Shown: positions 26,729 to 29,035, counted from the first letter of the stretch. The stretch is 35,857 bases of DNA from Nanobdellota archaeon (GCA_034722435.1 JAYENX010000023.1:6053-41909), one strand, 5' to 3'. Translations and numbers: made by a program. Notes: generated from the letters alone by a model not told the origin.

Positions 26729-27169
26729 ATGAAAAATATAATGGACCTAGATAACAATGTACGTGGCCAGATTTGTGAGGAGTTAGCAAAACATTATATT
26801 TGTTTAGCGATAAGGTGTAAATATGTTGATTCTAAAGTTATTGATAATTGGAAAATAAATCAAGAACAGAAAGCATTTATCAAAAAATATTGGAAGTATA
26901 TAGACATAATTAGATTTAACAATCACAAACAAATTGTTGACATCTACGAAATAAAGAGTAGGAAATTTCAGCATATATCTTGGAAAACACATTCTATTTC
27001 TGAATTCATGTTAAAATTGTATAAAGAAGCAATTCGATTAGGAATGAAAATTAAAGTTTTTAATATTGAATTACATGAAAATTGGAACTTTGATTTTACT
27101 GTTAAAGAATTCTCGGAATCAGACTTTGCAGTCAGTGTAAAAAGGGGACAGCGGTTCAGTAGACGATAG
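26729..27169 (+). CDS. Hypothetical protein, PD-(D/E)XK nuclease-like
   Basis: GQICE...YIDII...VDIYEIKS resembles the E...D...EIK restriction-fold motif. Confidence 0.5.
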   Translation: MKNIMDLDNNVRGQICEELAKHYICLAIRCKYVDSKVIDNWKINQEQKAFIKKYWKYIDIIRFNNHKQIVDIYEIKSRKFQHISWKTHSISEFMLKLYKEAIRLGMKIKVFNIELHENWNFDFTVKEFSESDFAVSVKRGQRFSRR

Positions 27170-27225
27170 CGCGAGGGCTAGAAAGGTATAATTTATTCTG
27201 ATAAAATAATAAAAGAAAATAAAAA

Positions 27226-27415
27226 TAGCCCCGCGCGGACTTTCGATGAATCACACTTGAAAGAGTGCACGAGGCACGTAGTGGATCAAATTGAGCTCAT
27301 TTCGAACCGCGGTCCCCGGATATCTTTAGGTACAACCTAAAAAGGGATGTAGTCTTCCAAAGTCCGAGATGATTGGCCACTACATTCCGCGAAGCTTTTG
27401 CTTCTCTACGGGGCT
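27226..27415 (-). tRNA. tRNA-Gln(UUG) with three introns (10/11, 37/38, 59/60)
   Basis: Exons 27415-27406, 27384-27357, 27321-27301 and 27239-27226 join to a 73-nt cloverleaf AGCCCCG TA GTGT AGTGGCCAA TCAT C TCGGA CTTTGGA TCCGG GGAC CGCGG TTCGAAT CCGCG CGGGGCT A. Each intron (21, 35, 61 nt) forms a BHB-like motif. CCA is not encoded. Confidence 0.93.
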
Positions 27416-27458
27416 ATAAATGGCCATCTGGACTAATTTAGTAAATTAAATAGCCTAT

Positions 27459-28130
27459 TTATAAATTTAATGCCTTTTTACGTTGTTCAAGAGTAGATTT
27501 AGGGATACAAAATCCCTTTTGCTTCCAGTACAAGTATTTAGTTTTATGTACAGGATTATTCATATTAACTAATTGCATCCATTTATCTAAGTTTTTAGAA
27601 CCTGAAATATGATAATAATGAAGTCCCCTTTTATCTATCCAACTAGAAAAATTGAAACCTAATGAGATAATCAAATCTTTAAGTTTAATCGAAAGAGGGC
27701 TATGCTTGAAACAAAATTGAATTCGGGGATAATGGTTAACTAACTTAGATTGTTTTTGAAACTTTAAAGAACCATCCGTATCGAATAAACCTCTTAAAAA
27801 ATGAGGTATAAGACAATCATTTTTTAAAATTAAATTAGGTACTCCAACTCCGAGTTTGTTTCCTTGTTTTAATCCCAACTTCAATAAAAATTTTACAGCA
27901 ATTTTATTATTTAATTCGATATAAATAGCATTTCTATCATTTCGAAATTTTATTTTCAAAGATTTATTAAATATTTTAGAAAAAAGAGGAAGCACTCGGT
28001 TTTCATAATATGAATAATCCTCTAAACTACCAACAATAGTTATTCTATACTCAGATTTATGTAAATTTCCATCACCCAGTATAATTCCAAGAAGTTCAGC
28101 AAGTTTATAATTATTTGAGGAATTATTCAT
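27459..28130 (-). CDS. Free-standing two-motif LAGLIDADG endonuclease-like protein
   Basis: LAELLGIILGDGNL and FLRGLFDTDGSL motifs; ATG at 28130 with GGGTG SD (GTG at 28142 is an alternative start). Confidence 0.9.
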   Translation of the reverse strand: MNNSSNNYKLAELLGIILGDGNLHKSEYRITIVGSLEDYSYYENRVLPLFSKIFNKSLKIKFRNDRNAIYIELNNKIAVKFLLKLGLKQGNKLGVGVPNLILKNDCLIPHFLRGLFDTDGSLKFQKQSKLVNHYPRIQFCFKHSPLSIKLKDLIISLGFNFSSWIDKRGLHYYHISGSKNLDKWMQLVNMNNPVHKTKYLYWKQKGFCIPKSTLEQRKKALNL

Positions 28131-28173
28131 TTTAAAATTCACCCTATCTTGATTTAAATTTATAATTCAAGCA

Positions 28174-28270: not shown

Positions 28271-29035
28271 CTAAACCTTAAAAATCTCAAGAACTTCTTC
28301 CTCGATAAAATGTAATTTACCAGGGATGATTAAAGAATGAAGAGGTTCACCAAAATCTTCTCCAATAAGTTTAGAGATTCGTCCGAATTTTATAATAGGA
28401 TTTTCAGAACCTATCCTTGCACAACCTATAACCAAAGTATCTTCAGTTATAATTTTGTCCTGGCGGTTATATTCTATGTTAAGGAGATTACGTAATGCTT
28501 CGTTAATAGTCATGAAACGATTTTCATGAGTCTTTATATCGAGAAGGCATAAAGTGTGAAGATCGTGTTTCATATTTTTCTTTATAACATCGTAAGGAGT
28601 TTGAGGTTCGTAACCAGGCTCTGTAAAAACTACTGAAGTTGTCTTACCAAACTTATAAAGTTCAAGACCTGTTACAGAAATAGCGTTCATAATGGAAGCG
28701 TTGTGAATAAATTTAGTAGAAATACCAAGTTTATGGGCTCTTAACCTTAAATCAGTATGAGTCGTAGCTCCAAATATGTCACCTATAACTAAAAAAGCAG
28801 TTTTCTTTTCTTTTGCATCTTTAAGAATAGTATCTTCAGGACGATTTTCTACTAAGTCACGGTCTGCAAGGATTACTTTTTTGCCATACAATTCTTCTAA
28901 AGCTTTAACATCGCAGTTAAGTTTAGATGTGTAACTCTCTAAGTAAATTGCATCACAATTTTTTAAAATTTCCTGACCTTTCAGGGTTATGTCTTTCTCG
29001 TCGTTGAGACCTATTCCGATGAAGTATAATGTCAT
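28271..29035 (-). CDS. dph5: Diphthine synthase
   Basis: MTLYFIGIGL..EKDITLKG, YLESYTS, FLVIGD.FGATTH.DL, GLELYKFGKTTS, HTLCLLDIK, PLHSLIIPGKLHFIEEE. Confidence 0.95.
   Translation of the reverse strand: MTLYFIGIGLNDEKDITLKGQEILKNCDAIYLESYTSKLNCDVKALEELYGKKVILADRDLVENRPEDTILKDAKEKKTAFLVIGDIFGATTHTDLRLRAHKLGISTKFIHNASIMNAISVTGLELYKFGKTTSVVFTEPGYEPQTPYDVIKKNMKHDLHTLCLLDIKTHENRFMTINEALRNLLNIEYNRQDKIITEDTLVIGCARIGSENPIIKFGRISKLIGEDFGEPLHSLIIPGKLHFIEEEVLEIFKV

What the first reader, a model, noticed from the sequence alone, without database searches (positions are those of the whole stretch)
27226..27415. tRNA-Gln(UUG) with three introns, including one at position 10/11
Seen in sequence: removing 27405-27385 (21 nt), 27356-27322 (35 nt) and 27300-27240 (61 nt) gives a canonical 73-nt tRNA-Gln. 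Intron 1 forms CCGU/GCGG central helix, AG|A and AA|U bulges and a GAAGC-AAAA-GCUUC inner hairpin, but it uses acceptor-stem bases 5-8 and lacks an outer helix. Intron 2 is a textbook BHB (CUUU/AAAG). Intron 3 uses UUCG/CGAA in the T loop. Established: multi-intron tRNAs are mainly known from Thermoproteales, and relaxed BHB/BHL motifs need broad-specificity splicing endonucleases. Inference: 10/11 is an unusual site, and because intron 1 pairs with acceptor-stem bases, splicing probably has to occur before or in competition with cloverleaf folding, implying an ordered pathway.
Basis: partly seen in the sequence, partly recalled or inferred. Interest (0 to 1): 0.8.

Follow-up and report, generated by a model that had tools for sequence, protein, structure and literature searches.

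The report
Three-intron tRNA-Gln with endonuclease-linked intron
This is the only glutamine tRNA gene found in a tiny Woesearchaeota-type (DPANN) archaeon, cut into four pieces by three protein-spliced introns; its odd first intron turns up across related species next to a selfish DNA-cutting (LAGLIDADG) gene, which hints at how such tRNA introns spread.

Summary
Removing 27405-27385, 27356-27322 and 27300-27240 (minus strand) gives a 73-nt cloverleaf that ARAGORN calls tRNA-Gln(UUG). It is the only Gln tRNA gene I found in the 94.5%-complete assembly.

The intron 1 junction is the contiguous sequence in orthologues without that intron: the same-genus and same-family genomes (unpublished) and several other families.

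Multi-intron tRNAs are a known kind and are common in this genome, as earlier reports of this scan noted. Three points go beyond that:

- **Recurrence.** The 10/11 intron occurs in 21 tRNA-Gln genes in 20 of 401 genomes of the order. All share a central helix with exon bases 5-8, a co-varying inner hairpin and no outer helix.
- **Link to an endonuclease gene.** A free-standing LAGLIDADG gene sits 13-55 nt upstream. Nine of its 11 close homologues flank such a gene. None of about 25 tRNA-Gln loci without the intron has it. This fits collaborative homing. This scan proposed the same idea earlier for tRNA-Trp on another piece of this genome.
- **Competition with the acceptor stem.** The intron 1 motif competes with the acceptor stem. 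In most orthologues a 5' leader antisense to the tRNA 3' end relieves this in folding models. Here the core of intron 3 seems to do so, which predicts that intron 1 is cut first.

The genome has one plain alpha-type EndA without the known specificity loops. Splicing, homing and splicing order are all inferred, not shown.

The parts
27226..27415 (-). tRNA-Gln(UUG) gene: four exons and three introns, no encoded CCA
   Evidence: The spliced product is called tRNA-Gln(ttg) by ARAGORN. It is the only Gln tRNA found in the assembly by spliced alignment.
27406..27415 (-). Exon 1, tRNA positions 1-10
   Evidence: It runs straight into exon 2 in orthologues without intron 1.
27385..27405 (-). Intron 1, 21 nt, at position 10/11. 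Relaxed HBh'-type motif: central helix CCGU(5-8)/GCGG, bulges AG|A and AA|U, 5-bp inner hairpin, no outer helix.
   Evidence: Absent from G001 and G002. Present with the same architecture in 20 other tRNA-Gln genes of the order.
27357..27384 (-). Exon 2, positions 11-37 (rest of D arm, 5' anticodon stem, anticodon UUG)
27322..27356 (-). Intron 2, 35 nt, at canonical position 37/38. Strict hBHBh' motif (CUUU/AAAG).
   Evidence: central 4/4, inner 2, outer 6. Conserved in G001 and G002, with wobble changes in the central helix.
27301..27321 (-). Exon 3, positions 38-59
27240..27300 (-). Intron 3, 61 nt, at position 59/60 in the T loop. Central helix UUCG/CGAA, with the T stem as outer helix. Its conserved core (GCCUCGUGC) can pair with the 3' acceptor strand.
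   Evidence: About 85% identical in G001 and G002. The same intron family occurs at 59/60 of a tRNA-Gly(UCC) in G122.
27226..27239 (-). Exon 4, positions 60-73
27456..27473 (-). BRE/TATA-type promoter of the tRNA. It overlaps the last codons (A-L-N-L-stop) of the upstream LAGLIDADG gene.
   Evidence: Sequence reading. The same promoter word precedes tRNA-Gln in relatives with and without the endonuclease gene.
27430..27435 (-). Weak leader 'decoy' UAGUCC at -20 to -15, able to pair with the 3' acceptor strand. It is the degenerate counterpart of the strong antisense leaders seen in orthologues.
   Evidence: dG -9.1 kcal/mol, z 0.2 in this genome; -16 to -27 kcal/mol in 12 of 18 orthologues.
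27201..27225 (-). T-rich tract directly after the discriminator base, the likely terminator
   Evidence: Sequence reading.
27459..28142 (-). Free-standing double-motif LAGLIDADG homing-endonuclease gene (227 aa). It ends 43 nt upstream of the tRNA on the same strand.
   Evidence: Pfam PF14528 at 22.7 bits against a cut-off of 22.5. Both motifs and their acidic residues are invariant in 8 homologues. A profile of the family hits solved LAGLIDADG enzymes. Its close homologues flank tRNA-Gln genes that carry the 10/11 intron.
28271..29035 (-). Diphthine-synthase-like gene, used as a synteny anchor upstream of the endonuclease gene
   Evidence: tblastn. The same gene lies next to tRNA-Gln in relatives in all three states: no endonuclease gene and no intron 1 (G053, G058); intron 1 only (G182); both (G161, G341).

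Best explanation
This is a working, single-copy tRNA-Gln(UUG) gene of a Woesearchaeales (DPANN) archaeon.

**Transcription and splicing.** The gene is transcribed from a BRE/TATA promoter that overlaps the end of the upstream LAGLIDADG gene. The precursor carries three bulge-helix-bulge introns at 10/11, 37/38 and 59/60. The genome's single alpha-type splicing endonuclease cuts them out and RtcB joins the exons.

**Splicing order.** The intron 1 motif is built with acceptor-stem bases 5-8. It therefore exists only while the 3' acceptor strand is unpaired or held elsewhere. In most orthologues a 5' leader antisense to the tRNA's own 3' end holds that strand. In this gene the conserved core of intron 3 appears to do so. 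Intron 1 should therefore be cut early, before intron 3 is removed.

**Origin of intron 1.** Intron 1 is not an old resident of this gene. It is linked to the free-standing LAGLIDADG gene docked on the tRNA promoter. Most likely the endonuclease cuts intron-less tRNA-Gln genes at or near position 10/11. Repair from an invaded allele then copies in both the endonuclease gene and the mini-intron, and the intron splits the target site and protects the carrier (collaborative homing).

**Status of each step.**
- Shown: gene structure, motif geometry, comparative presence and absence, co-occurrence, and complementarity.
- Inferred: actual splicing, splicing order, endonuclease target, immunity, and direction of transfer.
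For: **Gene and junctions**
- The cloverleaf, anticodon and A1-U72 pair are confirmed.
- G001, G002 and several other families read straight across the intron 1 junction.
- No other Gln tRNA is in the assembly. The ARAGORN 'tRNA-Gln' on contig C13 is a false call spanning protein genes.

**Splicing machinery**
- There is one EndA gene with PF01974 and PF02778 domains and no paralogue.
- RtcB is present.

**Intron 1 family**
- 21 genes in 20 of 401 genomes, across 15 families.
- Of the 19 genes scored, 18 have 4/4 central pairs, and the hairpin co-varies.
- G344 has a compensatory exon A7 with an intron AUGG strand.

**Link to the endonuclease gene**
- Of 11 genomes with a close homologue (at least 43% identity), 9 have it directly upstream of a tRNA-Gln with the 10/11 intron.
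- One more (G069) is split across contig ends in a way that fits adjacency.
- None of about 25 tRNA-Gln loci without the intron has it, including the sister genomes.
- All three states occur in the same synteny next to the diphthine-synthase-like gene.
- The enzyme's motifs are intact in all 8 aligned homologues.
- Similarity between this genome and G001 stops at the intron 1 site.

**Competition with the acceptor stem**
- P(intron 1 helix) is 0.93-0.99 in the nascent RNA.
- In the full precursor it ranges from 0.07 to 0.91, depending on the leader length modelled.
- It is about 0 once intron 3 is gone.
- Leaders of intron-bearing genes pair with their own 3' ends: mean -19.2 against -9.25 kcal/mol, Mann-Whitney p = 2e-6, with compensatory T-stem changes.
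- The natural leader raises P from about 0 to 0.88-0.996 in 12 of 18 orthologues.
Against: - There are no RNA data, so splicing and its order are model predictions. Minimum-free-energy models of pre-tRNAs are crude, and for this gene the result swings with the assumed leader length.
- The endonuclease gene and the intron lie about 50 nt apart. Any kind of inheritance keeps them together, so co-occurrence alone does not show that the intron is the enzyme's target or shield.
- Ten intron-bearing genes lack the endonuclease gene.
- One close homologue (G282) lies beside an intron-less tRNA-Gln.
- Genomes of one order are not independent samples.
- The enzyme is a plain alpha type. It has no insertion where the N. 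equitans and ARMAN-2 enzymes carry their loops and no gaps against the M. jannaschii enzyme. Published work says such enzymes need strict motifs (PMC3239211), so how intron 1's open 3' site is cut is unexplained.
- The absence of intron 1 in the same genus and family rests on unpublished genomes G001 and G002.
Confidence: 0.6

Rival explanations
1. This is an ordinary multi-intron tRNA. Intron 1 is an old intron of the order's tRNA-Gln that has been lost many times. The LAGLIDADG gene is an unrelated lodger that settled once beside an intron-bearing allele and was inherited with it. The association is then physical linkage, not function.
For: - The intron occurs without the endonuclease gene in 10 of 21 genes.
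- Hairpins share a purine-rich stem start across families, as expected for common descent.
- LAGLIDADG genes are very common in the order, in 121 of 401 genomes, and lie beside many different tRNAs.
- G282 carries a close homologue beside an intron-less gene.
Against: - Nine or ten of the 11 close homologues lie beside an intron that only about 5% of genomes carry.
- The block is scattered over 10 families and is missing from the same genus and family.
- All three states are found in one synteny.
- Vertical descent would need very many independent, exact losses of both parts.
Confidence: 0.27
2. The antisense leaders, and the pairing of the intron 3 core with the 3' acceptor strand, are DNA relics such as partial duplications left by recombination or insertion. 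They have no role in RNA folding. The intron 1 motif simply forms during transcription.
For: - Several leaders are short direct repeats of the tRNA's first 7 bases, which could be repair footprints.
- This genome's own leader decoy is weak (z 0.2).
- Nascent-transcript models already give P above 0.9 without any helper.
Against: - The long leaders carry the extra A expected of an antisense copy, not a direct copy of the T arm.
- They track each genome's own T-stem sequence through compensatory changes.
- The signal is absent from 25 genes without the intron.
Confidence: 0.3
3. The locus is a decaying pseudogene or a chance cloverleaf, and glutamine codons are read by a tRNA gene missing from the assembly.
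For: - The assembly is 94.5% complete, in 60 contigs.
- Standard tRNA finders do not call the gene.
Against: - The exons are identical to those of the same-genus orthologue.
- All stems are intact.
- All three motifs are in register.
- A promoter and a T-tract are present.
- About 26 other tRNA genes here are split in the same manner.
Confidence: 0.03

Closest known systems
Multiple-intron tRNA genes of Thermoproteales (Sugahara et al. 2007, 2008; reviewed in PMC4090602 and PMC4033280)
   Same: [quoted passage not shown] Relaxed motifs lacking one flanking helix. Similar introns shared between different tRNAs. An intron even at 3/4 in the acceptor stem, which must likewise be cut from a non-cloverleaf fold.
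   Different: A different superphylum (DPANN, not TACK). Here there is a single alpha-type EndA rather than the heterotetramer with the Crenarchaea-specific loop. Position 10/11 is not in the position lists I could read. No endonuclease gene or antisense leader has been linked to those introns.
ARMAN-2 disrupted tRNAs with epsilon2 EndA, and DPANN alpha4 EndAs with the L3 loop (PMC3239211, PMC3488258, PMC5829648)
   Same: A DPANN lineage with many non-canonical and T-loop (59/60) introns. Incomplete tRNA sets from standard predictors. Co-variation of intron load with the enzyme has been discussed.
   Different: This enzyme is 176 aa. It aligns with the M. jannaschii alpha4 enzyme without gaps in the catalytic domain. 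It lacks the 6-residue basic insertion of the N. equitans loop. None of the published specificity loops is visible.
Collaborative homing: free-standing endonuclease F-CphI and the psbA group I intron of cyanophage S-PM2 (PMC6083498); mobE and I-TevIII trans homing in T4 (PMC2790892)
   Same: An endonuclease gene outside the intron, next to the intron-bearing gene. The intron is thought to split the target and so protect the carrier. Both move together by break repair. Distribution among relatives is patchy.
   Different: Here the intron is a 21-nt protein-spliced archaeal intron in a tRNA, not a self-splicing group I intron. The host is a cell, not a phage. The enzyme is a LAGLIDADG type. Cleavage and immunity are untested.
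LAGLIDADG enzymes encoded inside archaeal rRNA bulge-helix-bulge introns, such as I-DmoI, I-PorI and I-Tsp061I (PMC2602781; PDB 2DCH matched)
   Same: The same enzyme family and the same intron type (cut by EndA), with homing shown for rRNA introns.
   Different: Those genes lie within long introns. Here the open reading frame lies outside, about 50 nt from a mini-intron too short to encode anything.

Membership tests
Archaeal bulge-helix-bulge (protein-spliced) tRNA intron | A 4-bp central helix flanked by two 3-nt bulges, with cleavage after the second bulge base on each strand | tested here: met
   All three introns have 4/4 central pairs in the register that gives the cloverleaf. The intron 1 junction equals the contiguous sequence of orthologues without it.
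Archaeal bulge-helix-bulge (protein-spliced) tRNA intron | Both flanking helices present (the strict hBHBh' form) | tested here: not met
   Met for intron 2 only. Intron 1 has an inner hairpin but 0-1 outer pairs (HBh' form). Intron 3 has the T stem as outer helix but an inner helix offset by one unpaired base. Introns 1 and 3 are therefore relaxed forms, which are a recognised sub-kind.
Archaeal bulge-helix-bulge (protein-spliced) tRNA intron | Splicing endonuclease and RtcB ligase encoded in the genome | tested here: met
   One EndA gene and one RtcB gene.
Archaeal bulge-helix-bulge (protein-spliced) tRNA intron | Excision observed in RNA | not testable with these tools
   No transcript data are available.
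tRNA-Gln (archaeal) | Cloverleaf with anticodon UUG, A1-U72 first pair and discriminator A73 | tested here: met
   ARAGORN call on the spliced sequence. A1-U72 as a mark of archaeal tRNA-Gln is recalled knowledge.
LAGLIDADG homing endonuclease (double-motif, single chain) | Two LAGLIDADG motifs, each with a conserved acidic residue, and a family profile match | tested here: met
   PF14528 at 22.7 bits against a cut-off of 22.5. D24 and D123 are invariant in 8 homologues. The profile hits PI-PfuI, an archaeal intron endonuclease (2DCH) and I-AniI.
Collaborative homing (free-standing endonuclease plus intron) | Endonuclease gene adjacent to the intron-bearing gene, and co-distributed with the intron among relatives | tested here: met
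   Nine (probably ten) of 11 close homologues lie beside a 10/11-intron tRNA-Gln. None of about 25 loci without the intron has one. Empty, intron-only and full states are seen in one synteny.
Collaborative homing (free-standing endonuclease plus intron) | The enzyme cuts the intron-less allele at or near the intron site, and the intron abolishes cutting | not testable with these tools
   Indirect evidence only. Second, intron-less tRNA-Gln genes in genomes carrying the endonuclease gene differ at 3-4 of the first 20 bases.
Broad-specificity EndA (heterotetramer with CSL, epsilon2 with ASL, or alpha types with the N. equitans-type loop) | A second structural subunit, or a specificity-loop insertion | tested here: not met
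   There is no second EndA-like gene. The protein has no insertion relative to M. jannaschii EndA. It is 6 residues shorter than the N. equitans enzyme at its basic loop (loop defined in PMC3488258).

The most novel reading that the evidence does not exclude
In Woesearchaeales, short protein-spliced tRNA introns spread by collaborative homing with free-standing LAGLIDADG endonuclease genes docked on tRNA promoters. Introns that land where their motif clashes with the cloverleaf are accommodated by antisense 'acceptor-holding' elements, either a 5' leader or another intron. These elements impose a splicing order and let a plain alpha4-type endonuclease act on them. This would give a concrete mechanism for the unexplained gain and 'transposition' of archaeal tRNA introns.
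Probability: 0.35. Interest if true: 0.85.

Novelty: new variant of a known kind. Interest (0 to 1): 0.62.

Why it matters
How archaeal tRNA genes acquire non-canonical introns is an open question. The 2014 review calls the mechanism of intron transposition unknown (PMC4090602). A 2026 census in Asgard archaea found no general route of arrival (bioRxiv 10.64898/2026.10.13.758758).

This locus and its roughly 20 relatives offer a directly testable route: a DNA-cutting selfish gene beside the tRNA, with the intron at its presumed target. Empty, intron-only and fully invaded alleles are all available in one gene neighbourhood.

The locus also shows an intron whose splicing motif cannot coexist with the finished tRNA fold. 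The apparent fix is a leader, or another intron, that pairs with the tRNA's 3' end. That would be a built-in ordering device for RNA processing.

Finally, it sharpens the puzzle of how a plain alpha-type endonuclease handles relaxed motifs. In practical terms, standard tRNA finders recover only 10-15 tRNA genes in this genome.

Tried and rejected
- **Standard tRNA finders.** ARAGORN and Rfam (gathering and E-value modes) on the unspliced locus found nothing.
- **False second tRNA-Gln.** ARAGORN's second 'tRNA-Gln' on contig C13, with a 1473-nt 'intron', spans protein-coding genes and has poor stems. I rejected it.
- **Intron copies in this genome.** BLAST of the three introns against the genome found no other copy, only AT-rich noise.
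- **GC islands as a filter.** Restricting a tRNA search to GC-rich islands failed because they cover 52% of the genome. I used a spliced-alignment scan with 55 mature tRNA queries from relatives instead. Its automatic position numbering is off by about 1 in places, and it recovered only about 26 genes.
- **Intron 3 as a C/D-box RNA.** I rejected this because the box-like bases are not conserved in G001 and G002 (reading).
- **Synteny with G001 and G002.** No similarity exists beyond the tRNA and its promoter, so the left border of the acquired block could not be set.
- **Second 'Gln' hits.** Those in G161, G114 and G069 turned out to be tRNA-Glu.
- **Literature gaps.** Sugahara 2007 is not held in the library, and the text tools cannot search for '10/11'. 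I cannot say the position has never been reported.

Full report
**Where this is.** The window is contig C23:6053-41909 of a 1.30-Mb, 33% G+C, 60-contig assembly rated 94.5% complete. Public records that encode the closest relatives of its splicing endonuclease are titled Candidatus Woesearchaeota or Nanoarchaeota. The organism is therefore a Woesearchaeales-type DPANN archaeon, as earlier notes of this scan also said.

**The observation.** ARAGORN folds it as tRNA-Gln(ttg) with A1-U72, a 7-bp acceptor stem and discriminator A. ARAGORN and Rfam miss the unspliced gene.

Each intron sits in a 3-4-3 bulge-helix-bulge register:
- Intron 1 (21 nt, 10/11) pairs exon bases 5-8 with its own 3' part. 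It has a 5-bp inner hairpin and no outer helix.
- Intron 2 (35 nt, 37/38) is strict.
- Intron 3 (61 nt, 59/60) uses T-loop bases, with the T stem as outer helix. One unpaired base offsets its inner helix.

A BRE/TATA-like word lies upstream and a T-tract follows the gene.

**Is it the working gene?** Only 10 Rfam tRNA hits and 15 ARAGORN calls exist in the genome. I took 54 mature tRNAs from two intron-poor relatives plus the spliced Gln sequence. I scanned the whole genome with a spliced aligner that knows nothing of the splicing motif.

The scan recovered about 26 tRNA genes. Most have introns near 20/21, 37/38 and 59/60. No second Gln tRNA (UUG or CUG) appeared, and no other intron lies 5' of the D loop. 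ARAGORN's other 'tRNA-Gln' is a false call across protein genes.

**Relatives settle the junctions.** The same-genus genome G001 and the same-family genome G002 (both unpublished) have the same gene with introns 2 and 3 (83-90% identical). They lack intron 1, and exon 1 runs straight into exon 2 with the predicted bases. Published genomes of other families also show the same contiguous junction, for example loci L016, L019 and L022.

A pattern search of 401 genomes of the order found 20 tRNA-Gln genes with an insert at exactly 10/11, after removing 5 false matches. A further one (G344) came from the endonuclease search. That makes 21 genes in 20 genomes and 15 families, covering both UUG and CUG isoacceptors.

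The inserts are 18-39 nt long. Of the 19 genes scored, 18 keep 4/4 central pairs. All start with A after a two-base bulge. Their hairpins differ in sequence but average 5.05 contiguous pairs, against 0.74 for shuffled interiors. The outer helix is 0-1 bp. G344 changes exon base 7 and the intron strand together. Position 10/11 is therefore rare, but it is a real and recurrent site for this tRNA.

**The enzyme.** The genome holds one EndA gene, on contig C58, encoding 176 aa. It has both Pfam domains and lies divergent from an RNase Z-like gene. No second EndA-like gene was found. RtcB is present.

The protein aligns with M. jannaschii alpha4 EndA without gaps over the catalytic domain. It is 6 residues shorter than the N. 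equitans subunit exactly at that enzyme's basic loop (loop defined in PMC3488258). Published work holds that alpha4 and alpha'2 enzymes need strict motifs (PMC3239211). It links DPANN alpha4 enzymes that carry that loop with disrupted tRNAs (PMC5829648). Here the loop is not visible, so how intron 1's open 3' site is cut remains unexplained.

**Competition with the cloverleaf.** The intron 1 helix and acceptor pairs 5-7 exclude each other. Partition-function folding gives these probabilities for the intron 1 helix:
- 0.93-0.99 in the first 34-59 nt of transcript.
- 0.25 in the leaderless 190-nt precursor, where the two folds differ by 0.4 kcal/mol.
- 0.07-0.91 depending on the leader length assumed.
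- About 0 once intron 3, or introns 2 and 3, are removed.

In the folds where intron 1 can be cut, the 3' acceptor strand pairs with the conserved core of intron 3. This genome has a C there where the four other copies of that intron family have U, which turns a wobble pair into a G-C pair.

**Antisense leaders.** In the orthologues the same problem appears to be solved differently. The 60 nt upstream of tRNA-Gln genes with the 10/11 intron are complementary to the last 24 nt of their own tRNA.
- Intron-bearing genes (n = 18): mean duplex energy -19.2 kcal/mol, z -3.05 against shuffled leaders.
- Genes without the intron (n = 25): mean -9.25 kcal/mol, z +0.21.
- Mann-Whitney p = 2e-6.

The long versions pair from the T loop to the acceptor end. 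They carry the extra A expected of an antisense copy and follow each genome's T-stem sequence through compensatory changes. The short versions repeat the first seven tRNA bases just upstream. Adding the natural 40-nt leader raises the modelled probability of the intron 1 helix from about 0 to 0.88-0.996 in 12 of 18 genes. This genome's own leader keeps only a weak 6-base decoy.

**The endonuclease link.** A first-reader note on this window pointed out a LAGLIDADG-like open reading frame upstream. The 227-aa protein (27459-28142, minus strand) ends 43 nt before the tRNA. Its last codons are the tRNA promoter. It passes the Pfam LAGLIDADG_3 cut-off narrowly. Both motifs are invariant among 8 homologues, and its family profile hits solved LAGLIDADG enzymes.

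A protein search of the same 401 genomes found the wider family in 121 genomes, but close homologues (at least 43% identity) in only 11. Of those 11:
- Nine lie 13-55 nt upstream of a tRNA-Gln that carries the 10/11 intron, eight of them on the same strand.
- One (G069) sits at a contig end, while that genome's intron-bearing tRNA-Gln starts another contig.
- One (G282) lies beside an intron-less tRNA-Gln whose bases around the site differ from the consensus.

None of about 25 tRNA-Gln loci without the intron has the gene, G001 and G002 included.

Next to a diphthine-synthase-like gene, all three states occur:
- Neither endonuclease gene nor intron 1: G053, G058.
- Intron 1 only: G182.
- Both: this genome, G161, G341.

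Similarity between this genome and G001 ends at the intron 1 site. Intron-less second Gln genes in carrier genomes differ at 3-4 of the first 20 bases.

**Reading.** The pattern is what collaborative homing predicts (F-CphI with the psbA intron, PMC6083498; mobE, PMC2790892; found). It also matches the invade, decay and loss cycle of homing genes. Physical linkage over about 50 nt would produce the same co-occurrence, so the target and the immunity role are inference.

I found no paper linking free-standing endonuclease genes with archaeal tRNA introns. Earlier reports of this scan proposed the same idea for tRNA-Trp on another piece of this genome, so this is a second case with broader comparative support.

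**Dependence on unpublished genomes.**
- G001 and G002: absence of intron 1 and of the endonuclease gene in the same genus and family.
- G122: the intron 3 family in a tRNA-Gly gene.
- G315: one of the 21 intron-bearing genes, and the one with a distant LAGLIDADG homologue.

Noticed in passing
window 27240-27300 (-); L182 (G122, unpublished); L178 (G041): Intron 3 belongs to a small conserved intron family found in 5 of 401 genomes. It sits at 59/60 of tRNA-Gln in this family of genomes and at 59/60 of a tRNA-Gly(UCC) in G122. In G041 a copy lies just 3' of a tRNA-Gly(UCC), inside a hairpin with its own bulge-helix-bulge-like closure. The outer stem co-varies while the core is fixed, which suggests a mobile or protein-bound element.
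   Followed up: partly
L194-L212 (relatives of the order): More distant homologues of the LAGLIDADG protein (33-41% identity) also lie 30-60 nt upstream of tRNA genes. [quoted passage not shown] The family occurs in 121 of 401 genomes. Each subfamily may have its own tRNA and intron site.
   Followed up: partly
G000:C58:50280-50807 (-), locus L031: The single EndA gene lies head-to-head with an RNase Z-like metallo-beta-lactamase gene. Two tRNA-processing enzymes therefore share one intergenic region.
   Followed up: no
window 26729-27169 (+): A 146-aa open reading frame converges on the tRNA 3' end. It has no Pfam match. Weak homologues (23-28% identity) lie beside tRNA-Gln in G002, G037 (L018) and G052 (L022). 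Another first-reader note calls it PD-(D/E)XK-like, which I did not test.
   Followed up: no
whole genomes G000, G018 versus G027, G024, G048, G030: The number of tRNA genes that the Rfam model detects varies widely within the order. It is 10 and 14 in this genome and G018, against 31-38 in four other near-complete genomes. Intron load therefore differs strongly between families that share a 65-79% identical EndA.
   Followed up: partly
L218, L219 (G282): G282 has a close homologue of the endonuclease gene. Both of its tRNA-Gln genes lack the 10/11 intron but share unusual bases around the site (C9 and A12). This could be resistance by substitution rather than by intron.
   Followed up: partly
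window 27456-27473 (-) and upstream of tRNA-Gln in relatives: One promoter word (a BRE plus TATA of about 16 nt) recurs before tRNA-Gln across families. Where the endonuclease gene is present, the same bases encode its conserved C-terminus (A-L-N-L).
   Followed up: partly
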